64,000 nucleotides of DNA from Escherichia phage CLB_P2 (OL770107); one strand, 5' to 3'; shown: positions 3,437 through 32,544, numbered from the stretch's first letter. Made by a program: numbers and translations. Notes: generated from the letters alone by a model not told the origin.

Positions 3437-4444
3437 TTAGAATTCGAAGATAATGTTAATTTCTTCGGTTTGGTCCATGGAACGAATAACCGGAGGACGG
3501 TTTTCCATATAAATCATTTCACCGGAGTGGCGGGAGAGATCTATAACGTCATAGTACTCTTTTTCGGCTTTAATGATCGGGTCTGATGGATGGGCTTTAG
3601 CTTCCAATGGGTTGGAAATTATTGAAAGTTGTCTAAATCCTTTATTCCCCGGCAAACTAAATTCAGGGAAATAAACTGAATCTAAGAATGCTTTAAAACG
3701 AATAGTATTGCCTTTAATACGATAAATCAAGCCATAATCGTCTTGTTGCCAAGTGAGGTTATTCTCATATCCCCAACGTTCAGGGTCTTCAGCAATTTCT
3801 TCCGGCCATGGAACTACAATATATTCATTGGTACAACGGTTGATACTTACATCAGGTGGAATCTCATAAAGATATTCCCAAAGATAGCCATCACCGGTGT
3901 CTACCATACCTTCTGTATCGCCTTGTCCTGCCGGAGCTTTAACTGAAGGGACGTTTGCGGTCCATTTACCACCAAGTTTAATACACTCGGTTTTATTATC
4001 AAGAGATAAAATAGAGCATGCTCCGGATTCAGGAACATCCACACAACGATAAACCATCCAACCTGCACCAACATCAGTACGGTTTTGCGGCTGGCTATTC
4101 GCCACTACAATTTCACCAATCTGGAATGTGAAAGGATTAGGATAAGAGGTATCGCCCCAGTCTTTGCGAGGAACAACACAATCCAACATACTCTTATAAA
4201 CCTTAACACAACCCATCATGTTTGTCCAGACGTCCTCTACGCCCTCAGAATCATCTACAGGATACGGTGGAGCAAAGCCTGGGTCGTTTTCGTTAGGAGC
4301 CCATGGTTGGGCTCTCCCGAAAGATACATACATCGTGTTCTGGTCTTCACCATCACCGATTGTTCTGTAAAAGTTGTACATCTTTTCCGTTCTAAATTTA
4401 GAAGTAACAATAGAACGATATATTACTGTTGAATTAATCATCAA
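3437..4444 (-). CDS. 8: baseplate wedge subunit gp8
   Basis: 335 aa (T4 gp8 334 aa); synteny between gp7 and gp9. Confidence 0.75.
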   Translation of the reverse strand: MMINSTVIYRSIVTSKFRTEKMYNFYRTIGDGEDQNTMYVSFGRAQPWAPNENDPGFAPPYPVDDSEGVEDVWTNMMGCVKVYKSMLDCVVPRKDWGDTSYPNPFTFQIGEIVVANSQPQNRTDVGAGWMVYRCVDVPESGACSILSLDNKTECIKLGGKWTANVPSVKAPAGQGDTEGMVDTGDGYLWEYLYEIPPDVSINRCTNEYIVVPWPEEIAEDPERWGYENNLTWQQDDYGLIYRIKGNTIRFKAFLDSVYFPEFSLPGNKGFRQLSIISNPLEAKAHPSDPIIKAEKEYYDVIDLSRHSGEMIYMENRPPVIRSMDQTEEINIIFEF

Positions 4445-7400
4445 TTTTTACCTGAGTTGGGTCTTGCGGGTCTCTAGGGTTTCCTATATCAGCTTTAAGT
4501 CTGTCATCAACTAAAGCACGCCATTTTGAAAATGTTACTGCACTTTGGTCAAATAAAGGACTATGCTTTTTAATACGTTCATGAGGTAATTGGCCTTGGA
4601 ATACAGAGAAATCATTTTCTGCGTCATAATCAGCAGGAATATCAAACGGTTCACCTGCTTTAGGTCCAACGTTATAAACCGGGAGCCCTGTTCTAGGGTC
4701 TCGTTCTATATTACCATCAAATCCGATTACAGCAACTCTATCATACCATTCGGATGGAAGACCTGAGTCCCACTTATAGTTCTTAAGTATATTAATAATG
4801 GTTTCCGTGTGCTTTAATGTCAAACCGACGTTAACAAACATAGAAAGCAACGTAATCCCTATAAAACCAAATCCTACAGGGTGGACAAATCTCAATACAT
4901 CATTACGATATCGAGAAGTAGGGAGGTTGGATTTAATAGTCATAACATAATAAGAACGGTTGCGGTTAATATAATCGATATTGTTACTTAACAATTCTTT
5001 ACCGCGTACACCCTGCACTATCATACCTTTAAATGATGTGCGTTCAGATTTAATCTCTTGACCCACTATAAAACGACCTAAAAGATTATGAATGGTTAAA
5101 CGCCATTGCAATTTACCATCTTTATAATTTCGTTCTATATAAGTAACATTACTTCTTCCTGTAGGGGTATAAATTGTTTGGCCGACAATATCTTCACTGA
5201 TGTTATCAGATTCTACAATGATATCATATTCAATAGAGTTCTTAGACTCTATATCAATTTCGACATCTTCGTTATAAAGCAATTTAAACAGGAATTTATA
5301 TGAAGCTTCGGTACCTTTTGTAGACCAGAAATCCGATTGACGAGCCTGGAAGAAACGAACCACTTCGTCGCGCTTTTCTTTAGACAGGTAGATATTACGT
5401 TTATAGATTTCGGACCACAAATATTCCCACGAGTCTTCTTCACGAGGATATTGGTTACGAATAAGATTTAATAGGTTATTATAATGAGTGCCAGAGCCAT
5501 CACTAATAAACTGAAGATAATATTCGCAGAATTTTTCAAAGTTAGAATCTTGAAGCAAATAACTATCAGGGACCATTTTAACCAATAAAGGACGCAAATC
5601 AGGGTCTTGTTCACCTGTTTCTTCTTTAGGGGTCCATGGAATTTCATGCTCTTGGTTTTGGAGCTCTGCGGTAAACATTATTTCTTTAGGCTTCCAAATT
5701 ATTCTAACTTCATCTCGAACTCGATAATCGAACTCGAAATATCCTATCAATTCACCTGATGATTTGTGAATCATTATACCTGAGGAATATTTTTTAAATC
5801 CACTGAATTCAATGTTAGGGCATGTTACAGTACAAAAGCCTTTATCCCAAATTTCGCGGATAATACGCTCTGGAGAAGAACCACTGTTTAAATCAATAAT
5901 TTTCTGATATAATGCATCGTTATAAACTACCATCGCATGATTACTTGTGGTAATCCAAGAGCGGGTTCCATCGCGTCTAGACCAACTAAAGAATGGTTCG
6001 GCATAATAAGCCATTCGGCCAGGTTTGAATTCTTTAAAATCTGATTTACTGTTAGCTCTAAAACTCATCATCAGATAATGTTTATCATGAATCCACTGCT
6101 CATCCTTAACGTATTTTACGGCAGAAGCCACGATAGGGTATTCTAAAGGCAATTCGTTGTCAACTTCCACCTCGTATTTGAAGTTACTTGAGCTAAAGAA
6201 TATTTCTTCACCGTCTGTAGACATGCTGGTATAACCATGCTCAATACGACGTCTCTCTTCTTCAGTATTACCAAATACTCTGGTCCATGTATCAGTTTCA
6301 GCATCCAACCAATAAACGCCTTTAGATTCAGAATCAACCACGTTTTCTTCTTTAGTAGGGTCCATTCTTTCTTCTTTAACTTCACCCGTAATTAAGGCAA
6401 AGGTGTTTCCTTGAATAGAGTCCAATTTATAACAAACTGCTTTAGGGTTGCCGGTTATGGTCGAATATCCACTTTCAAATATTTTTTCACCATAAGTAGG
6501 AGAACCTGGGTCGGTATCAATAGGCGCATCGGTGGTTTTTGCTTTATAAACTCTGTCTCTAGCAGCCACGTAAATAAAATCGTCCGAAGCACACATTGCC
6601 TCTGCTATAGTAGAAATAGCTAATGGTAAACGGGCATAAGAACCAAAAATTTCAATTTCAAAATCAAGGTCGATATCACTACCAATTTTAGCAAATGTCA
6701 CGTCTTGTGAGCTAAAACGTACATCATCAGCAGACCATCTGATATCACTAGATTTACGTCCGTAAAATATACGGTCATAACCTAAAACATAAGTTGTGGT
6801 GTCCGTTTGGTAATGGGCCGTACGTGAAACCGGATTACCTACTCGGTCATTAAACAAACGAATATAGTGCCAGTTTTGAGCTTTGTCATTAGATACCTTA
6901 GCAGTGTTCTGAAATCTTTCTAAAAGATAAAGTACACCACCAAGCTCCATTAAAATAGAACGATTAGGGTCCTTACATACGGCTTGAATACTTCCTTGAA
7001 TCTCATGAAAGCGGTCAGCCTTTAATACATAATTAGAAATTGAAGAAAGGTGAGAATACGATGGAGTCCAAGTAAAATCCTCTGTCATCATAGAAGCCAT
7101 AATGGCATCACTATTAAAATCCACGTAATTCTGGTTATTTTTGGTAAATTTTTCTTCAATGAATTTATCGGATAAAGTGAATTCTCGCATATGCTCGAAG
7201 GTATATGCGTTGGTAGAAAATGTCTCGAATTCTTCTGTATAAACCCATTCGGATTGTTCAAATCCTTGAGCAGCTACAGCGACACGCATTTTATAAAACG
7301 AATTAGGAGAAATAAATCTTTCTTCGAACCAGTTATTGTTCGGGGTGTAACCTAAATTTCTCCAAAATAACTTATCATCGGGTATAGATTCACCCGCATC

Positions 7401-16102: not shown

Positions 16103-16110
<8 letters not shown>
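15349..16110 (+). CDS. 1: deoxynucleoside monophosphate kinase gp1
   Basis: 253 aa; P-loop GIKRSGKDT near the N-terminus; synteny before 57A. Confidence 0.75.
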
Positions 16111-16994
<884 letters not shown>

Positions 16995-17045: not shown

Positions 17046-17072
17046 AAACAAACTAACCAAATGGAAATCAAA

Positions 17073-17351
17073 ATGAAAACTTATCAAGAATTTAGTAAAT
17101 CTCAAAAAGTGGCTCCTATCAATGAAGCCAGTGTTATGAGTGAAGTTATAGCCCTAAACAAAGGCCGTGAAGGTAAACCGGTTATCGGTCTTAATGGTGA
17201 TGAACTTAAAGGTACTGTTTATCTGGGCGACGGTTACCATGCTAAAAAAGACGGTGGGAGCATTGTTATTTCCCCGGCTCAAGAATCTTCTGTAATGAAA
17301 ACCGTTTACATCGCCACCAAGCACTTTGATATTTTGAAAAAAGCACTTTAA
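17073..17351 (+). CDS. ipI: internal head protein, ipI-locus type
   Basis: Starts MKTYQEF (T4 internal-protein capsid-targeting leader); 92 aa; located between 57B and the tRNA cluster as ipI is in T4. Confidence 0.6.
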   Translation: MKTYQEFSKSQKVAPINEASVMSEVIALNKGREGKPVIGLNGDELKGTVYLGDGYHAKKDGGSIVISPAQESSVMKTVYIATKHFDILKKAL

Positions 17352-19014: not shown

Positions 19015-19090
19015 CGAGGCATAGCTCAGAAGGAAGAGCAAGGACCTTCTAAGTCCTGGGTCGTAGGTTCGATCCCTACTGTCTCGACCA
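19015..19090 (+). tRNA. tRNA-Arg (TCT)
   Basis: 76 nt: acceptor cgaggca/tgtctcg (one G-U), anticodon stem aggac/gtcct with loop cTTCTaa, T-arm gtagg-ttcgatc-cctac, CCA. Confidence 0.75.
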
Positions 19091-19257
19091 AACAAGAAAC
19101 CGGGTCGCTACCGGTAAGTCGTCGGACTGAAGTTCCCTGAATAAGACCCGACTTTAAGGCGTACATGAGTTCCTCTTAAAGTCCCTTATCTCACAGCTGA
19201 AACGGCGCACCGAACACTTGCCTAGCAGGTGGAACCCCGACAAGGTTACCCTAGGTT
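19091..19257 (+). ncRNA. candidate small stable RNA downstream of the tRNA cluster
   Basis: About 170 nt non-coding stretch with several local hairpins between the last tRNA and a strong terminator; no canonical T-loop; T4 encodes stable RNAs of unknown function in its tRNA region. Confidence 0.3.
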
Positions 19258-28233: not shown

Positions 28234-28722
28234 ATGGATATTTTTGATATGTTACGTCAAGACGAAGGTCTTGATTTAAATCTTTATAAAGACACCGAAG
28301 GTTATTGGACTATTGGTATAGGCCAGTTAGTTACCAAGAACCCATCTAAAGATGTTGCTCGCGCTGAACTTGATAAGCTTATGGGTCGAGTTTGTAATGG
28401 TCGTATTACTATGGCTGAAGCTGAACAACTCTTTAATCGTTCAGTGGAAAATGCTCGTAGAGCTATAATGCGCAATCCTAAATTAAAACCGGTTTATGAT
28501 GTGCTGGACGAAGTTCGTCGTTGTGCATTGATTAATATGGTCTTCCAAATGGGTGAAGCTGGTGTAGCGGGATTTACCAACTCTCTGCGTATGCTCCAAC
28601 AAAAACGTTGGGATGACGCCGCAGTTAACCTGGCGCAGTCTCGTTGGTACAAGCAAACCCCGAATCGTGCCAAGCGTGTTATCGCCACCTTTAAAACAGG
28701 TACTTGGGCCGCTTATAGATAA
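28234..28722 (+). CDS. e: endolysin (T4 lysozyme e)
   Basis: 162 aa; [17 protein letters not shown] and [30 protein letters not shown] match T4 lysozyme. Confidence 0.9.
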
Positions 28723-28727
28723 AAGCA

Positions 28728-28770
28728 GTTTACATCTCCGGTAGGCATGATACTATAGACCTATCAACTA
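28728..28770 (+). promoter_or_regulatory. early promoter / stem-loop cassette (PeSL-like)
   Basis: GTTTAC -35, 17-nt spacer, TACTAT -10; inverted repeat flanking; leader CAACTACAGGAGATTAAAATG. Confidence 0.55.
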
Positions 28771-28782
28771 CAGGAGATTAAA

Positions 28783-29199
28783 ATGACTCGTATCAACCTT
28801 ACCTTAGTATCTGAATTGGCCGACCAACACCTTATGGCTGAATACCGTGAATTACCACGTGTTTTCGGTGCAGTTCGTAAGCATGTTGCTAACGGTAAAC
28901 GTGTTTGTGATTTTAAAATCAGCCCTACTTTTATCCTTGGTACAGGCCATGTTACATTCTTTTATGATAAGCTTGAATTTTTATGTAAGCGTCAAATTGA
29001 GCTTATAGCTGAATGTTTAAAACGTGGCTTTAATATCAAGGATACTACAGTCCAGGACATTAGTGATATTCCTCAGGAATTCCGTGGTGATTATGTTCCT
29101 CACGAAGCTTCTATCGCTATTTCACAAGCCCGTTTGGATGAAAAAATTGCACAACGTCCTACCTGGTACAAACATTATGGTAAGGCGATTTACGCATAA
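28783..29199 (+). CDS. denV: endonuclease V (pyrimidine dimer DNA glycosylase)
   Basis: 138 aa; [40 protein letters not shown] ... essentially identical to T4 endonuclease V as recalled. Confidence 0.9.
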
Positions 29200-29337
29200 G
29201 GGAGCAACCTGGACCTCACAATTCTGTGAGGGACTCCCGCCAACCTGTAATAAGGTCGAGCCCAAGTGCGGTAATGGGTAAATGCAGAAAGGGACGAATT
29301 AATGTGCCAAGGAACGGCCCACAACTAAGAGACAACT

Positions 29338-29865
29338 ATGAAATTTTTAACCCCCATTTATCTAACCTTAATGCACGCCTTCGCTGAACGCGCCATTGAA
29401 CGTTTAGACTCAGACCAATATACCTGGTATGAACCTACTTCAAGAATGCAAGAGTTTGGTACTCTTCGACTTGACGGCGGGCGTCAAACAGGTAAAACAA
29501 GTGCCATCGCCCAGTTCGCGGCGGATTGGGTTTCCAAGGGTAATGATGTGATTGTTATGTCAAGTTCTTCGCATCGCTCACGAGAAATCTGTAATATAAT
29601 AAAAAGGGTTTCTAAGGCCCAACCACACCTTCAAGTAGAAGGTCCTGGGTTTGTTGTGTATGATACCGTGCGTTCATTTTTAGACGAAGATAACTTCCAT
29701 AAGTATCGTGGACTGTCTGTTACCCGATTATTGATTATTATTGAAGAGCCTATTCGCCTACCAGCGATGGATAAGTTCTATGAAGCTTACCAGGTAATGA
29801 TGAATAAATTTATGTGCCAGGGTTCTAAACCTCTGCCACTGTTCTTTGTGATAGGAATGCAATGA
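29338..29865 (+). CDS. hypothetical protein with P-loop-like motif
   Basis: GGRQTGKTS Walker-A-like segment; 175 aa. Confidence 0.45.
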   Translation: MKFLTPIYLTLMHAFAERAIERLDSDQYTWYEPTSRMQEFGTLRLDGGRQTGKTSAIAQFAADWVSKGNDVIVMSSSSHRSREICNIIKRVSKAQPHLQVEGPGFVVYDTVRSFLDEDNFHKYRGLSVTRLLIIIEEPIRLPAMDKFYEAYQVMMNKFMCQGSKPLPLFFVIGMQ

Positions 29866-30158
29866 TGACTGATGAAGAGCTTTTTGAGTTCTGTTATTTC
29901 TCACGTAAGGTTCGAAGAGAGGACCTTACTACAAATTTCGAATATGCTTATTTCTATCCATTAGAATATGTATTCATGTCAGGGCCCTTTAAGGGCTCTC
30001 GTTTTAGATGCCACGCCCCAAGCATCCGATTAATGAAACAGGTTCCTTACTTCACTCTCGAGTTCATCTCTGGGCCGTGTAAGGGTATTATTACTCGCAG
30101 TCTCTTGACGTATGACCAAGAGATTCATATGATTTCTGACTGGAAAAAATATGTCTAA
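29862..30158 (+). CDS. hypothetical protein
   Basis: 98 aa ORF, ATGA overlap. Confidence 0.4.
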   Translation: MMTDEELFEFCYFSRKVRREDLTTNFEYAYFYPLEYVFMSGPFKGSRFRCHAPSIRLMKQVPYFTLEFISGPCKGIITRSLLTYDQEIHMISDWKKYV

Positions 30159-30369
30159 ATTGACAATTGAAGGCTCTGATGAAGCTCTGAAGAGATTTGT
30201 TGAATGGTTTAATGGGCCGGGTGAACAAGACTTTCTGGAAGTCTGGGACGGTGGTCAGTGGAATGGTAAAGAAGTGGTTTACCCAACTACTTATATCTCC
30301 GTGCAAGGTTGGACTGAAGGCCTTCGTTTGGTGGAATATGATATCGCAACTGGCGAGGAAGTGAAATGA
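30151..30369 (+). CDS. hypothetical protein
   Basis: 72 aa ORF. Confidence 0.4.
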   Translation: MSKLTIEGSDEALKRFVEWFNGPGEQDFLEVWDGGQWNGKEVVYPTTYISVQGWTEGLRLVEYDIATGEEVK

Positions 30370-30644
30370 TTGAAGACATCAAAGGTTACAAGCCACATAC
30401 CGACGATAAAATCGGTAAAGTGAATGCCATTAAAGATGCTGAAGTTCGATTGGGCTTAATCTTTAAAGCATTAGAAGAAGAATATGTTGAAGCCTTTACA
30501 TGCTCCGGTGTTGATAAAATGAGTGATGAAGAATTCGACCTTACTCATGAACGCCTCGCCCAGATTCGTACGGCAATCGAACGCTTGAAAGAAGCATCCA
30601 TGTGGGCCTGTCGTTCCGTTTTCCAACCTGAGGAAAAATACTAA
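30366..30644 (+). CDS. hypothetical protein
   Basis: 92 aa ORF in the interval corresponding to T4 vs.3-vs.8. Confidence 0.4.
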   Translation: MIEDIKGYKPHTDDKIGKVNAIKDAEVRLGLIFKALEEEYVEAFTCSGVDKMSDEEFDLTHERLAQIRTAIERLKEASMWACRSVFQPEEKY

Positions 30645-30649
30645 AAGCA

Positions 30650-30692
30650 GTTTACATCTCCTGTAGACGTGGTACTATAGACCTATCAACTA
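30650..30692 (+). promoter_or_regulatory. early promoter / stem-loop cassette (PeSL-like)
   Basis: GTTTAC -35; inverted repeat cctgtag/ctacagg around GGTACTAT; near-duplicate of the 28728 cassette. Confidence 0.55.
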
Positions 30693-30706
30693 CAGGAGAT
30701 TACAAA

Positions 30707-31165
30707 ATGTCAGAAATTAATTCAGAAGTATTCATCCGCCGCAACAAATTACGTCGTCAGTTCGAAACCGAATTTCGTGAACTTAACGCGTCCATCAAAA
30801 AAGCCGCCATTAAGAGCGGTGTCCCAGCTTTCTTTATTAAGTACTCTAATCACTTGTTGGACCGTGCTATCCAACGTGAAATTGACGAAAAATATGTTTT
30901 CTCTTTGTTCAAGAAGCTCCACAATCATGTTAAAGAAATCCATGAATTTTTAATCCAGGAGCCTCTTCCTGACATAGAATCTGAAATTGTCCCAGGTAAA
31001 GTGTATCGTCCACTGCGTCTCGAGATTACCGATAAAACCTTATGGTTGGGTATGACCGTAGATCGTAAACATCCTGATAAAGGATATTCATTAAAATGTC
31101 GTATGGCATTTGTTAATTCTAAACGTTTAGAAGGTAAAACCAGCACGAAAGTAATCTATCTTTAA
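30707..31165 (+). CDS. regB: RegB site-specific endoribonuclease
   Basis: 152 aa; VFIRRNKLRR.FE.EFR and HLLDRAIQREIDE.YVF match T4 RegB as recalled. Confidence 0.8.
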   Translation: MSEINSEVFIRRNKLRRQFETEFRELNASIKKAAIKSGVPAFFIKYSNHLLDRAIQREIDEKYVFSLFKKLHNHVKEIHEFLIQEPLPDIESEIVPGKVYRPLRLEITDKTLWLGMTVDRKHPDKGYSLKCRMAFVNSKRLEGKTSTKVIYL

Positions 31166-31177
31166 TAATGAGGTCTC

Positions 31178-31717
31178 ATGAAAAAAGTATTAGCCACTTT
31201 ACTATTGACAGTTAGTATGTCTGCCTATAGCGTAGAGCCTACTTTCAGTAATGAACAACTCGATAATTTACATTATGCGTATGCTTTCGGTGAACAATAC
31301 CAAAAGTCGGGAAAGTTCAAAGAAAACCCTAATCAAAAAGGATTAGGATATATAATGGCCGGATTATTATGGCAGGAATCATCTGCTGGAATTAATCAAG
31401 GTTTAAATAAAGATAAGCACCATGCTTATGGCATGTTCCAAAATTACTTGCCTACGTTAAGAAGTCGTGTTCAACAGGTAGGTTGGAAGATGTCAGACAA
31501 AGAAATAATTCGCATGGTCCAAAAACGACAGAACAGTGCCTCTTGGGCCTACATTGAGCTGTCTTATTGGATTGATGTTCACAAAGGTGACCTGAGAAAA
31601 GCGATTGCTTCTTATAATGCGGGCTGGAATGTCAAAGCAGGCAGTAAATATGCTTCCGAAGTTCTAGAAAAGGCCAATTACCTAAAATCTAAAAAGATGT
31701 TTGAGGCGGTATATTAA
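31178..31717 (+). CDS. lytic transglycosylase-like protein with signal peptide
   Basis: N-terminal signal sequence; SLT-domain motifs LLWQESSAG and AIASYNAGWN. Confidence 0.5.
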   Translation: MKKVLATLLLTVSMSAYSVEPTFSNEQLDNLHYAYAFGEQYQKSGKFKENPNQKGLGYIMAGLLWQESSAGINQGLNKDKHHAYGMFQNYLPTLRSRVQQVGWKMSDKEIIRMVQKRQNSASWAYIELSYWIDVHKGDLRKAIASYNAGWNVKAGSKYASEVLEKANYLKSKKMFEAVY

Positions 31718-32074
31718 ATGATTAAACAGATGACTATAGCGCTTATGTTGATTGCTCCGGGAGTATTAGCATCACAGGTTGATGATACAAATAATTCAAT
31801 TGTCGAGTATGCCACCCGTACAGCAAAAGATTATTGTCATCCGAGTAATACTGAATGCGTTATTGAATTCAGTTCAAAAATAACAGCTGCTTTTAAAGAT
31901 GGACAGAACGACGTCGAGCATCGCCGAATGAAAGAGAAAACTCTTTCTAAAAGATACGAGCAACGTCTAAACGTTACTGAATGTGTTCCGTCTGATAAAA
32001 AGTACAAAGAAATGTGCGCGTCTATGGTAGACAGACTCGTTGACTCTTACAACCGAGGGCTAAACTCTAAATGA
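31718..32074 (+). CDS. small secreted protein
   Basis: 118 aa; N-terminal signal-like hydrophobic segment. Confidence 0.4.
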   Translation: MIKQMTIALMLIAPGVLASQVDDTNNSIVEYATRTAKDYCHPSNTECVIEFSSKITAAFKDGQNDVEHRRMKEKTLSKRYEQRLNVTECVPSDKKYKEMCASMVDRLVDSYNRGLNSK

Positions 32075-32544
32075 TTATTGATTATATTAAGGGCGATATC
32101 GTCGCCCTGTTTCTTCAAGGTAATATTATTGCACACGGGTGCAACTGTTTTCATACTATGGGTTCAGGGGTGGCTGGTCAATTAGCAAGGGCCTATCCTA
32201 AAATATTAGAAATTGATAAGACCACTACTGAATATGGTTCTCGTGATAAATTAGGTGACATGTCTATTGTTTTTAAACATAAGCCTACTGGGTTTGGTAT
32301 GTGTTATAATTTGTACACCCAATACGAACCAGGCCCTAATCTTGATTACGGTGCTTTAGTAAACTGTATGATAGAATTAAATCTACAAGCAAATGACCTT
32401 TTGTTTAAACCAAGAATTTATATTCCGCGCATAGGTTGTGGTATTGCTGGTGGTGATTGGGACAAGGTTTCTAAATTAATCGACATGTTTACTCCTGATA
32501 TTGATTTAATAGTGGTGGATTATGAGTCAAGTGCGAATTCTTAA
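32071..32544 (+). CDS. macro-domain protein (ADP-ribose binding/processing)
   Basis: 157 aa; HGCNCFHTMGSGVAG and IGCGIAGGDW correspond to the macro-domain Gly-rich phosphate-binding motifs. Confidence 0.55.
   Translation: MIIDYIKGDIVALFLQGNIIAHGCNCFHTMGSGVAGQLARAYPKILEIDKTTTEYGSRDKLGDMSIVFKHKPTGFGMCYNLYTQYEPGPNLDYGALVNCMIELNLQANDLLFKPRIYIPRIGCGIAGGDWDKVSKLIDMFTPDIDLIVVDYESSANS

What the first reader, a model, noticed from the sequence alone, without database searches (positions are those of the whole stretch)
29338..30644. Four orphan ORFs in the denV-regB interval where T4 has vs.3-vs.8
T4 Vs.4 has been described as a cyclic-dinucleotide sponge (Acb2). Any of the 72-98 aa proteins here (29862, 30151, 30366) might be its counterpart, but I cannot match them by sequence from memory.
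Basis: inference. Interest (0 to 1): 0.35.

Follow-up and report, generated by a model that had tools for sequence, protein, structure and literature searches.

The report
Known T4 vs genes, including Acb2
The four small genes are not orphans: they are the already catalogued counterparts of phage T4 genes vs.8, vs.7, vs.5 and vs.4, and the last one is the known Acb2 'sponge' that soaks up the bacterial cyclic-dinucleotide alarm signal, which is ordinary for this phage group.

Summary
The window is a Dhakavirus (a JS10-like relative of T4). It is 100% identical to Dhakavirus CLBP2 over the region tested.

None is an orphan:
- 29338-29865 is Vs.8.
- 29862-30158 is Vs.7.
- 30151-30369 is Vs.5.
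- 30366-30644 is Vs.4, also called Acb2.

The Acb2 assignment rests on four results:
- It matches Pfam Acb2/Tad1 hairpin at 59.6 bits against a cut-off of 27.
- It matches PHROG 717.
- It is 67% identical to the solved T4 Vs.4-cGAMP structure 7UQ2.
- Every published cGAMP-contact and hexamer-interface residue is conserved.

The two positions needed for cyclic-trinucleotide binding are not conserved, so I predict a dinucleotide-only sponge, as in T4.

JS10's GenBank record has called this gene vs.4 since 2008, and UniRef names the identical protein 'Acb2/Tad1 hairpin domain-containing'.

Vs.8 models as a minimal P-loop ATPase. Vs.7 and Vs.5 remain without a function.

The more novel item lies just outside the finding. 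At 29199-29282 there is a covariation-supported structured RNA that is absent from Rfam 15. It occurs in over 1000 phage genome records and sits in or beside tRNA gene clusters in unrelated phages.

The parts
28723..28782 (+). Promoter, stem-loop and ribosome-binding-site cassette in front of denV. It contains GTTTACA, then 16 nt, then TACTAT, and an inverted repeat CTCC.GTAG...CTACAGGAG that carries the GGAG ribosome-binding site. It probably marks the start of the transcription unit that holds the four genes.
   Evidence: Sequence and promoter-like hit at 28729-28756. A nearly identical copy lies before regB.
28783..29199 (+). denV (endonuclease V); context gene on the 5' side.
   Evidence: 96% identical to T4 DenV; Pfam Pyr_excise and phrog_1183.
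29199..29282 (+). Conserved structured RNA element, not part of the original finding. Stem P1 is 29200-29204 paired with 29234-29238 and encloses the hairpin 29214-29220/29225-29231. Stem P2 is 29239-29242 paired with 29275 and 29277-29279, with G29276 bulged. Hairpin P3 is 29243-29246/29253-29256 with loop GUAAUA. Hairpin P4 is 29257-29261/29266-29270.
   Evidence: Covariance model R1 gives one hit in the window, 85.9 bits, E 2e-19. Covariation: 95% of cells paired, 9-10 of 17 pairs carry compensatory changes, and slid controls reach at most 47%. No Rfam hit.
29338..29865 (+). vs.8 orthologue, 175 aa. A stand-alone P-loop (ASCE) NTPase domain with Walker A G47-GRQTGKT54 and Walker B L131-LIIIEE137.
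   Evidence: 38.5% identical to T4 Vs.8; phrog_1488 at E 9e-69; JS10 annotates it as vs.8. AF2 model has pLDDT 88 and pTM 0.87. Foldseek matches helicase and terminase ATPase cores. Invariant G48, R49, G52, K53 and E137.
29862..30158 (+). vs.7 orthologue, 98 aa, function unknown. It carries two copies of a [FI]xSGP[FC]KG motif.
   Evidence: 48% identical to T4 Vs.7; phrog_2049 at E 6e-46. Homologues carry a precomputed Pfam PF26834 label. The AF2 model was unusable, pLDDT 40.
30151..30369 (+). vs.5 orthologue, 72 aa, function unknown.
   Evidence: 51% identical to RB69 Vs.5, E 5e-19. Residues 12-72 match T4 DNA in a frame different from the annotated T4 vs.5. phrog_1986. A cluster member is named Vs.5 in phage VR7.
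30366..30644 (+). vs.4 / acb2 orthologue, 92 aa: anti-CBASS cyclic-dinucleotide sponge.
   Evidence: Pfam PF24729 at 59.6 bits against cut-off 27; PHROG 717; PDB 7UQ2 at E 1.4e-30. 62 of 87 aligned residues are identical to T4 Vs.4, and all functional residues are kept. UniRef name is 'Acb2/Tad1 hairpin domain-containing protein'.
30645..30706 (+). Second copy of the promoter, stem-loop and ribosome-binding-site cassette, in front of regB. It closes the denV-to-vs.4 module.
   Evidence: Sequence comparison; promoter-like hit at 30651-30678.
30707..31165 (+). regB endoribonuclease; context gene on the 3' side.
   Evidence: Pfam REGB_T4 at 232.6 bits; 59% identical to T4 RegB.

Best explanation
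The four ORFs are the Dhakavirus orthologues of T4 early genes vs.8, vs.7, vs.5 and vs.4.

They form a tightly packed block whose overlapping stops and starts suggest translational coupling. The block lies between two near-identical promoter/stem-loop cassettes, one before denV and one before regB. It is therefore most likely transcribed as denV, structured RNA, vs.8, vs.7, vs.5, vs.4 (inferred).

The last gene encodes Acb2. By homology to the solved T4 protein it should form a hexamer whose three dimer interfaces each trap one cyclic dinucleotide, such as 3',3'-cGAMP. Binding would use stacking on Y8 and F86 and polar contacts from H11, K23 and R83. This would keep the CBASS second messenger away from its effector (inferred from conserved residues, not measured).

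The equivalents of PaMx33 R67 and T74 are A65 and E72, so it probably does not bind cyclic trinucleotides, like T4 Acb2.

Vs.8 is a minimal P-loop ATPase of unknown role. Vs.7 and Vs.5 have no assignable function.
For: Identity of the genes: blastp and tblastn against T4 and RB69, PHROG hits for all four, conserved gene order in JS10, RB69, T4 and PEi20-like phages, and names carried by identical or near-identical GenBank and UniRef entries.

Acb2: Pfam PF24729 above its gathering score and PDB 7UQ2 at E 1.4e-30. T4 residues Y8, H11, K23, R79, F82 (ligand), L29, F33, A66, A73, A77 (hexamer) and T12, L60, S74 (screen mutants) are all conserved in the window protein. Residue roles come from Jenson et al. 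2023, PMC10097602.

Trinucleotide site: T4 D61/T68 correspond to window A65/E72. T4 Acb2 lacks cA3 binding (PMC10312549).

Operon: no promoter-like site on the + strand between 28784 and 30105, duplicated cassettes, and overlapping stops and starts.

Vs.8: a confident AF2 model, Foldseek hits to ASCE ATPase cores, and invariant Walker residues.
Against: - No binding, oligomerisation or infection data exist for this particular protein.
- The central third of the protein (residues 34-63) differs from T4 and has a 5-residue insertion, so affinity or ligand spectrum could differ.
- The operon structure is inferred from consensus scans only. T4-type middle and late promoters were not scanned.
- Vs.8 matches to known ATPases are weak (TM 0.4-0.54), and its Pfam hits are below cut-off.
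Confidence: 0.92

Rival explanations
1. The Acb2 counterpart is one of the other small ORFs (29862-30158 or 30151-30369) rather than 30366-30644.
For: Nothing from the tools supports this.
Against: They match T4 Vs.7 (48%, E 4e-30) and RB69 Vs.5 (51%, E 5e-19). They have no Pfam Acb2 hit and no PDB hit to Vs.4.
Confidence: 0.01
2. ORF 30366-30644 has the Acb2/Tad1 hairpin fold but binds a different messenger (for example Thoeris gcADPR, like Tad1) or has lost sponge activity.
For: Pfam PF24729 covers both Acb2 and Tad1 hairpins. The middle of the protein diverges from T4 and carries a 5-residue insertion.
Against: 62 of 87 aligned residues are identical to T4 Vs.4, and every residue shown to contact cGAMP or build the hexamer is kept. 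It lies between vs.5 and regB, as the vs.4 genes of T4, RB69 and JS10 do, though T4 and RB69 have one extra small gene before regB.
Confidence: 0.05
3. The four genes work together as one anti-defence module, with the Vs.8 ATPase, Vs.7 and Vs.5 assisting or complementing Acb2, rather than being unrelated neighbours.
For: The order vs.8-vs.7-(vs.6)-vs.5-vs.4 is conserved in T4, RB69, JS10, this window and PEi20-like phages. Stops and starts overlap. The phage carries other counter-defence genes nearby in the same arm: Acb1, IpI and a macro-domain protein.
Against: T4 Acb2 alone binds cGAMP and inhibits CapV in vitro, and acb2 alone triggers Panoptes. Pseudomonas-phage Acb2 proteins are studied as single proteins. 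Gene order in T4-like early regions is conserved for many unrelated genes.
Confidence: 0.12

Closest known systems
T4 Vs.4 / Acb2 (PDB 7UQ2; Jenson et al. 2023, PMC10097602)
   Same: 67% identity. It lies between vs.5 and regB, as in T4. The N-terminal 33 residues differ at only 2 positions and the C-terminal 19 at only 1. All cGAMP-contact and hexamer-interface residues are the same.
   Different: A 5-residue insertion and a divergent helix-turn region (residues 34-63). T4 D61/T68 correspond to A65/E72 here. T4 has vs.3 between vs.4 and regB, and this phage does not.
Pseudomonas phage PaMx33 Acb2 (Huiting et al. 2023; Cao et al., PMC10312549)
   Same: Same family and the same Tyr/Lys dinucleotide pocket. 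PaMx33 Y11/K26 correspond to Y8/K23 here, with the same 15-residue spacing.
   Different: PaMx33 also binds cyclic trinucleotides through R67/T74. The equivalents here are A65/E72, so trinucleotide binding is not expected. Sequence identity to the T4-type protein is only about 24% according to the paper. I did not align PaMx33 directly.
Tad1 (Thoeris anti-defence sponge)
   Same: It shares the hairpin domain that Pfam PF24729 models.
   Different: The window protein is a close orthologue of T4 Vs.4, not of Tad1.
ATPase domain of large terminases (T4 gp17, PDB 2O0H/3CPE) and SF1/SF2 helicase cores; comparison for Vs.8
   Same: ASCE P-loop fold with Walker A and B motifs. Foldseek probability 0.9-1.0 and TM 0.4-0.54. 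Weak PHROG and Pfam terminase hits.
   Different: Vs.8 is only 175 aa, a single domain with no nuclease or second RecA lobe. The Pfam Terminase_6N score of 13 bits is below the 22-bit cut-off.
T4 stable RNAs rnaC and rnaD (species 1 and 2); comparison for the RNA element at 29199-29282
   Same: Both are small phage RNA elements associated with tRNA gene clusters and have no known function. In rV5-like and other phages this element lies in or beside tRNA clusters on the same strand.
   Different: Model R1 gives no hit on the T4 rnaC/rnaD locus at E up to 10. In T4-like phages the element is 6-10 kb from the tRNA cluster. No evidence yet shows that it accumulates as a stable RNA.

Membership tests
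Acb2 / Vs.4 anti-CBASS sponge | Significant match to the curated family model (Pfam PF24729 Acb2_Tad1_hairpin) and to PHROG 717 | tested here: met
   59.6 bits against gathering cut-off 27, E 3.5e-16. phrog_717 at E 7.8e-28. PHROG 717 is the Vs.4 homologue set of Jenson et al..
Acb2 / Vs.4 anti-CBASS sponge | Close sequence relationship to a member with a solved ligand-bound structure | tested here: met
   PDB 7UQ2 chain A (Vs.4) at E 1.4e-30 over the full length. 62 of 87 aligned residues identical.
Acb2 / Vs.4 anti-CBASS sponge | Cyclic-dinucleotide pocket residues (T4 Y8, H11, K23, R79, F82; PaMx33 Y11, K26) | tested here: met
   Window Y8, H11, K23, R83 and F86 are all identical to T4. Residue roles.
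Acb2 / Vs.4 anti-CBASS sponge | Hexamer-interface residues (T4 L29, F33, A66, A73, A77) | tested here: met
   Window L29, F33, A70, A77 and A81 are all identical to T4.
Acb2 / Vs.4 anti-CBASS sponge | Forms a hexamer and binds 3',3'-cGAMP with nanomolar affinity | not testable with these tools
   Needs AUC or SEC and ITC. The structure tool predicts monomers only.
Acb2 subgroup that also binds cyclic trinucleotides (PaMx33, JBD67 type) | Arg and Thr at the positions of PaMx33 R67 and T74 | tested here: not met
   The equivalents are A65 and E72. T4 (D61/T68) and CHI14 lack cA3 binding. I therefore do not place the window protein in this subgroup.
T4 Vs.8 family (phrog_1488), P-loop NTPase | Full-length homology to T4 Vs.8, Walker A and B motifs, ASCE fold | tested here: met
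   E 2e-35 to T4 Vs.8. Invariant G48, R49, G52, K53 and E137. AF2 pLDDT 88. Foldseek hits to ATPase cores.
Large terminase ATPase (Pfam Terminase_6N) | Score above the Pfam gathering cut-off | tested here: not met
   13 bits against cut-off 22. Vs.8 resembles the fold but is not a member.
T4 Vs.7 family (phrog_2049) and Vs.5 family (phrog_1986) | Full-length homology to the named T4 or RB69 proteins, in the same gene order | tested here: met
   Vs.7: 48% to T4. Vs.5: 51% to RB69 Vs.5. Same order in JS10, RB69 and T4.
Any Rfam 15 RNA family (for the element at 29199-29282) | cmscan hit at or near a family's gathering score | tested here: not met
   No family hit the element in the 2.7-kb scan at E up to 5. 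The 156-nt scan at E up to 10 gave one chance-level hit, mir-611 at 13 bits against a gathering score of 90, on the opposite strand.

The most novel reading that the evidence does not exclude
The 84-nt stretch directly upstream of the four-gene block (29199-29282) is a member of an undescribed, widespread class of phage structured RNA.

T4's reference annotation treats the corresponding stretch as the N-terminus of Vs.8. The element is a three-way junction with invariant loops AAGGUCGAGC and GCGGUAA.

It occurs once per genome in T4-like phages. In rV5-like phages and in several uncultured gut and environmental phage groups it lies inside or beside tRNA gene clusters on the same strand.

It would be a new stable or processed phage RNA, in the spirit of T4 rnaC/rnaD, whose conserved core binds some host or phage factor. 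It is not a leader specific to vs.8 or acb2.
Probability: 0.45. Interest if true: 0.6.

Novelty: already known. Interest (0 to 1): 0.15.

Why it matters
For the finding itself, little is new. It confirms that Dhakaviruses, like T4, carry both anti-CBASS genes: Acb1 at 16333-16788 and Acb2 at 30366-30644.

Three predictions follow from published T4 work, none tested here:
- The phage should resist dinucleotide-based CBASS.
- Acb2 should give no protection against cA3-based CBASS.
- The phage should be sensitive to Panoptes, which Acb2 triggers.

These predictions can help host-range forecasts for therapeutic T4-like phages.

The side observation could matter more. A covariation-supported RNA found in more than 1000 phage genome records is absent from Rfam 15. 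It also shows that the reference annotations of T4 vs.8 (N-terminal 40 aa) and vs.5 (frame) are probably wrong.

Tried and rejected
- NCBIfam and PDB sequence searches for Vs.8, Vs.7 and Vs.5 gave nothing above noise.
- AlphaFold2 of Vs.7 with a 5-sequence alignment gave pLDDT 40, which is unusable, so I did no fold search on it. My impression that its two SGP[FC]KG motifs resemble KOW/SH3 motifs is untested.
- An exhaustive HMMER search with Vs.5 found 13 hits at E up to 0.001, only a handful of them small relatives of similar size. The long multi-stretch hits look like repeat noise. No functional lead came from it.
- Two of the literature searches were swamped by unrelated papers: 'vs.7'/'vs.8' matched statistics text, and denV matched dengue virus. 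The search for vs.8 with denV and regB found nothing.
- For the RNA, a single-sequence fold is not more stable than shuffles (z -0.2 to -1.1).
- The MFE hairpin GCCCA/UGGGU is not supported by covariation: 69.5% paired against 71% in shuffles. I rejected it in favour of P2.
- The idea that the RNA is coding (T4's Vs.8 N-terminus) is rejected. The frame differs from vs.8 in this window, RB69 has a 1-nt deletion in the core, and one frame carries TAATAA.
- A vs.8-specific 5'-UTR riboswitch is unlikely. In rV5-likes a sigma-70 promoter lies downstream of the element. In other phages it sits among tRNAs. In some Klebsiella-type T4-likes it precedes an internal-protein gene.
- Relatedness to T4 rnaD, which shares GGUCG...CGGUAAG, is rejected by the covariance model.
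- The element has no host copy: 0 hits in 185,579 species genomes and none in 5,426 E. coli genomes.

Full report
**What the window is.** Megablast of 28700-31300 finds 100% identity to Dhakavirus CLBP2 (OZ035781) and 99.9% to Escherichia phage dhabil. It also finds 95% identity to JS10, the type Dhakavirus in the Tevenvirinae. The local gene order is nudE, e, denV, four ORFs, regB, vs.1, vs, tk.4 ... tk. This is the T4 order read on the opposite strand.

**Checking the observation.** The four ORFs are at exactly the coordinates given: 29338-29865, 29862-30158, 30151-30369 and 30366-30644, all on the + strand. They are packed with overlapping stops and starts (ATGA, an 8-nt overlap, ATGA), and each has a purine-rich stretch upstream. 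They are real genes. Each matches a PHROG family over its full length, at E 9e-69, 6e-46, 6e-36 and 8e-28. Each exact sequence is already in GenBank, in clusters of 21 to 90 members.

**They are not orphans.**
- ORF 1 is 38.5% identical to T4 Vs.8 (E 2e-35).
- ORF 2 is 48% identical to T4 Vs.7 (E 4e-30).
- ORF 4 is 67% identical to T4 Vs.4 (E 1e-34).
- ORF 3 matches annotated T4 Vs.5 only over its first 16 residues. It is 51% identical over its full length to RB69 Vs.5 (E 5e-19).
- Residues 12-72 of ORF 3 match T4 DNA in a reading frame other than the annotated one, running up to the vs.4 start. ORF 3 is therefore Vs.5, and the 58-aa T4 reference Vs.5 looks frameshifted or mis-annotated.
- JS10's 2008 GenBank record already names vs.8, vs.7 and vs.4 at these positions. 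A cluster member from phage VR7 is named Vs.5.
- Relative to T4, vs.3, vs.6, ipII and ipIII are missing here.

**The Acb2 question.**
- It passes Pfam PF24729 (Acb2/Tad1 hairpin) at 59.6 bits against a cut-off of 27.
- It belongs to PHROG 717, the set Jenson et al. used to list 198 Vs.4 homologues.
- Its only significant PDB match is 7UQ2, T4 Vs.4 bound to cGAMP, at E 1.4e-30 over the full length.

Jenson et al. (PMC10097602) report the following for T4 Vs.4:
- It is a hexamer holding three cGAMP molecules, with Kd about 30 nM.
- Y8 and F82 stack on the bases, and Y8, H11, K23 and R79 make polar contacts.
- L29, A66, A73, A77 and F33 build the hexamer.
- T12I, S74N, A77I and L60F arose in their loss-of-function screen.

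A global alignment maps every one of these residues onto an identical residue in the window protein: Y8, H11, T12, K23, L29, F33, L64, A70, A77, S78, A81, R83 and F86.

Cao et al. (PMC10312549) show that PaMx33 Acb2 uses Y11 and K26 for dinucleotides. These correspond to Y8 and K23 here, with the same spacing. PaMx33 uses R67 and T74 for cyclic trinucleotides. T4 Acb2 (D61/T68) does not bind cA3, and the D61R mutation does not rescue binding. The window protein has A65 and E72 at these positions. I therefore predict a dinucleotide-only sponge.

All of this is inference from conserved residues. Nothing was measured for this protein. The central part (residues 34-63) diverges and has a 5-residue insertion, so affinities may differ.

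**Consequences from the literature.**
- The same phage also encodes Acb1 (16333-16788; Pfam PF23474, 197.8 bits). Like T4, it therefore carries both anti-CBASS genes.
- In T4, Acb2 is necessary and sufficient to trigger the Panoptes system, because it sequesters the decoy 2',3'-c-di-AMP. Y8A and F82C abolish this effect (PMC12657218).
- Since both residues are conserved here, the phage is predicted to be Panoptes-sensitive.

**The other three proteins.**
- Vs.8: an alignment of 45 homologues, all about 175 aa and from T4-like phages, shows invariant G48, R49, G52 and K53 (Walker A, GGRQTGKT) and E137 (Walker B, LLIIIEE).
  - AlphaFold2 gives a confident single alpha/beta domain, with pLDDT 88 and pTM 0.87.
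  - Foldseek against the PDB returns ASCE ATPase cores. These include the SLFN11 helicase domain, RecD, the T4 gp17 ATPase, RadD and other terminases, at TM 0.4-0.54.
  - Pfam hits (AAA_14, Terminase_6N and others) are all below cut-off.
  - Vs.8 is thus a minimal stand-alone P-loop NTPase. It works like an ATPase core but belongs to no curated family.
- Vs.7: I found only four close homologues. All carry a precomputed Pfam label, PF26834, that is not in the local Pfam copy. The AF2 model failed at pLDDT 40.
- Vs.5: an exhaustive search of 1.84 billion representative proteins found 13 hits, only a few of them small relatives of similar size.
- I cannot assign functions to Vs.7 or Vs.5.

**Transcription context (inferred).**
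- The 60 nt before denV (28723-28782) and the 62 nt before regB (30645-30706) are near-identical cassettes.
- Each has GTTTACA, 16 nt, TACTAT, then an inverted repeat that carries the GGAG ribosome-binding site.
- From memory, they resemble the promoter-early stem-loop cassettes described for T4-type phages.
- No promoter-like site was found on the + strand between them until 30105.
- The unit is therefore probably denV, intergenic RNA, vs.8, vs.7, vs.5, vs.4.

**Outside the finding: a structured RNA at 29199-29282.** T4's annotated Vs.8 is 44 residues longer at its N-terminus than this window's protein. Its first 19 residues (MRDSRQPVIRSSPSAVMGK) are identical to a short window ORF (29226-29387). 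That ORF is in a different frame from vs.8. So the DNA is conserved, not a protein.

The 138-nt denV-vs.8 spacer (GC about 47%, against about 39% in its flanks) is widely conserved:
- It matches 1065 phage records.
- Its 47-nt core is 91-94% identical in rV5-like Vequintavirinae.
- The core is also present in RB69, in Serratia and Edwardsiella phages, and in a 45-kb phage.
- Pattern scans of IMG/VR and of metagenomes added further clades.
- There are no copies in 185,579 bacterial and archaeal species genomes or in 5,426 E. coli genomes.

From the diverse copies I derived a model:
- P1 encloses a variable hairpin.
- P2, with a bulged second 3' nucleotide, closes a three-way junction with hairpins P3 (ACCU-GUAAUA-AGGU) and P4 (CGAGC...GYGCG).
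- The invariant segments are AAGGUCGAGC and GCGGUAA.

The covariation evidence is as follows:
- On a MAFFT alignment of 42 distinct copies, 94.9% of cells form standard pairs, against 81% in shuffles (0 of 500 shuffles reach it) and 22-47% when partners are slid.
- All nine pairs of P1 and P2 carry compensatory changes. For example, pair 61-94 is AU 22, UA 8, UG 7, CG 4, GC 1, with none unpaired.
- A model-based realignment gives 95.3% and 10 of 17 compensatory pairs. That alignment leans towards the model.
- The frequent G-U pairs in P4 and P2 fit only the + strand.
- The thermodynamic MFE alternative GCCCA/UGGGU shows no covariation.

The covariance model finds one copy per genome:
- The window copy scores 85.9 bits.
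- Some PEi20-like phage loci hold two copies in tandem.
- There is no hit on T4 rnaC/rnaD.
- Rfam 15 has no match.

Context:
- In T4-likes the element follows the stop codon of the upstream gene and usually precedes vs.8. In some it precedes an internal-protein gene.
- In rV5-likes a sigma-70 promoter lies downstream of it.
- In at least 15 loci from non-T4 clades it lies within 17-1150 nt of tRNA genes on the same strand. In one locus it sits inside a tRNA cluster.

I therefore favour a stable or processed small RNA over a vs.8-specific leader. Its function is unknown. The GUAAUA hexaloop recalls the 23S rRNA 1093-1098 loop; this is from memory and may be coincidence. I found no prior description, but the literature search was shallow.

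**Verdict.** The gene is a new copy of an already known and already annotated family, so interest in the finding is low. The most novel thing nearby is the RNA element.

Noticed in passing
window 29199-29282 (+): Covariation-supported structured RNA: P1 plus a three-way junction P2/P3/P4, with invariant AAGGUCGAGC and GCGGUAA. It lies between denV and vs.8. It matches over 1000 phage records across T4-like, rV5-like and uncultured phages. It is absent from Rfam 15 and from bacterial genomes.
   Followed up: yes
L079 1337-1406, L101 3502-3570, L063, L039, L004, L029, L066, L082, L089, L094, L099: In non-T4 phages the same RNA element lies inside or next to tRNA gene clusters on the same strand, 17 nt to about 1.1 kb away. 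PEi20-like phage loci L051 and L097 carry two copies in tandem.
   Followed up: partly
L003 (T4 NC_000866) 5794-5913 minus strand, i.e. T4 64793-64912: The first 40 codons of the annotated T4 vs.8 (219 aa) overlap the conserved RNA element and are not conserved as protein. The true start is probably M41 (MRTFLTGPYL...), which gives a protein of about 179 aa like all its homologues.
   Followed up: partly
L003 (T4) 4347-4558 minus strand: The annotated T4 vs.5 (58 aa) shares only its first 16 residues with Vs.5 of other phages. The rest of the conserved 72-74-aa protein is encoded in another frame of T4 DNA. This points to a frameshift, a pseudogene or a sequence/annotation error in the reference.
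   Followed up: partly
window 28723-28782 and 30645-30706 (+): Two near-identical cassettes of about 60 nt precede denV and regB. Each has GTTTACA, 16 nt, TACTAT, and an inverted repeat ending in the GGAG ribosome-binding site. They look like the mobile early-promoter stem-loop cassettes of T4-type phages.
   Followed up: partly
window 16333-16788 (+): Acb1 (T4 57B) orthologue, Pfam PF23474 at 197.8 bits, next to gp57A (16103-16333) and IpI (17061-17351). The phage carries both anti-CBASS genes.
   Followed up: partly
window 19091-19210 (+), just after tRNA-Arg (19015-19090): Sequence closely resembling T4 stable RNA species 2 (rnaD): same 5' GAAACCGGGUCGCUACCGGUAAGUCGUCGGACUGA and same 3' GAAACGGCGCACC. 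The window has only three tRNAs (Met, Asn, Arg), against eight in T4.
   Followed up: no
window 32071-32544 (+): Tk.4 orthologue with a Macro domain (Pfam PF01661, 32 bits). Its role in this phage is unknown.
   Followed up: no
L058 2453-2560 and L059 191-300 (165-235-kb phages): Another apparently structured sequence beside tRNA clusters shares AAGGUCGAGC...GCGGUAAGGAAGC and ends in ...GAGCACC. It has only a weak hit to model R1 (16.5 bits) and no Rfam family at gathering score. It may be a distant relative or a different small RNA.
   Followed up: no
window 29283-29337 (+): In T4-like phages only, the RNA element is followed by a conserved stretch, AUGUGCCA(A/C/U)GGAA(U/C)GGCCC. It can form a small GCCA/UGGC hairpin displaying GGAA just upstream of the vs.8 ribosome-binding site. 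I did not test it for covariation.
   Followed up: no
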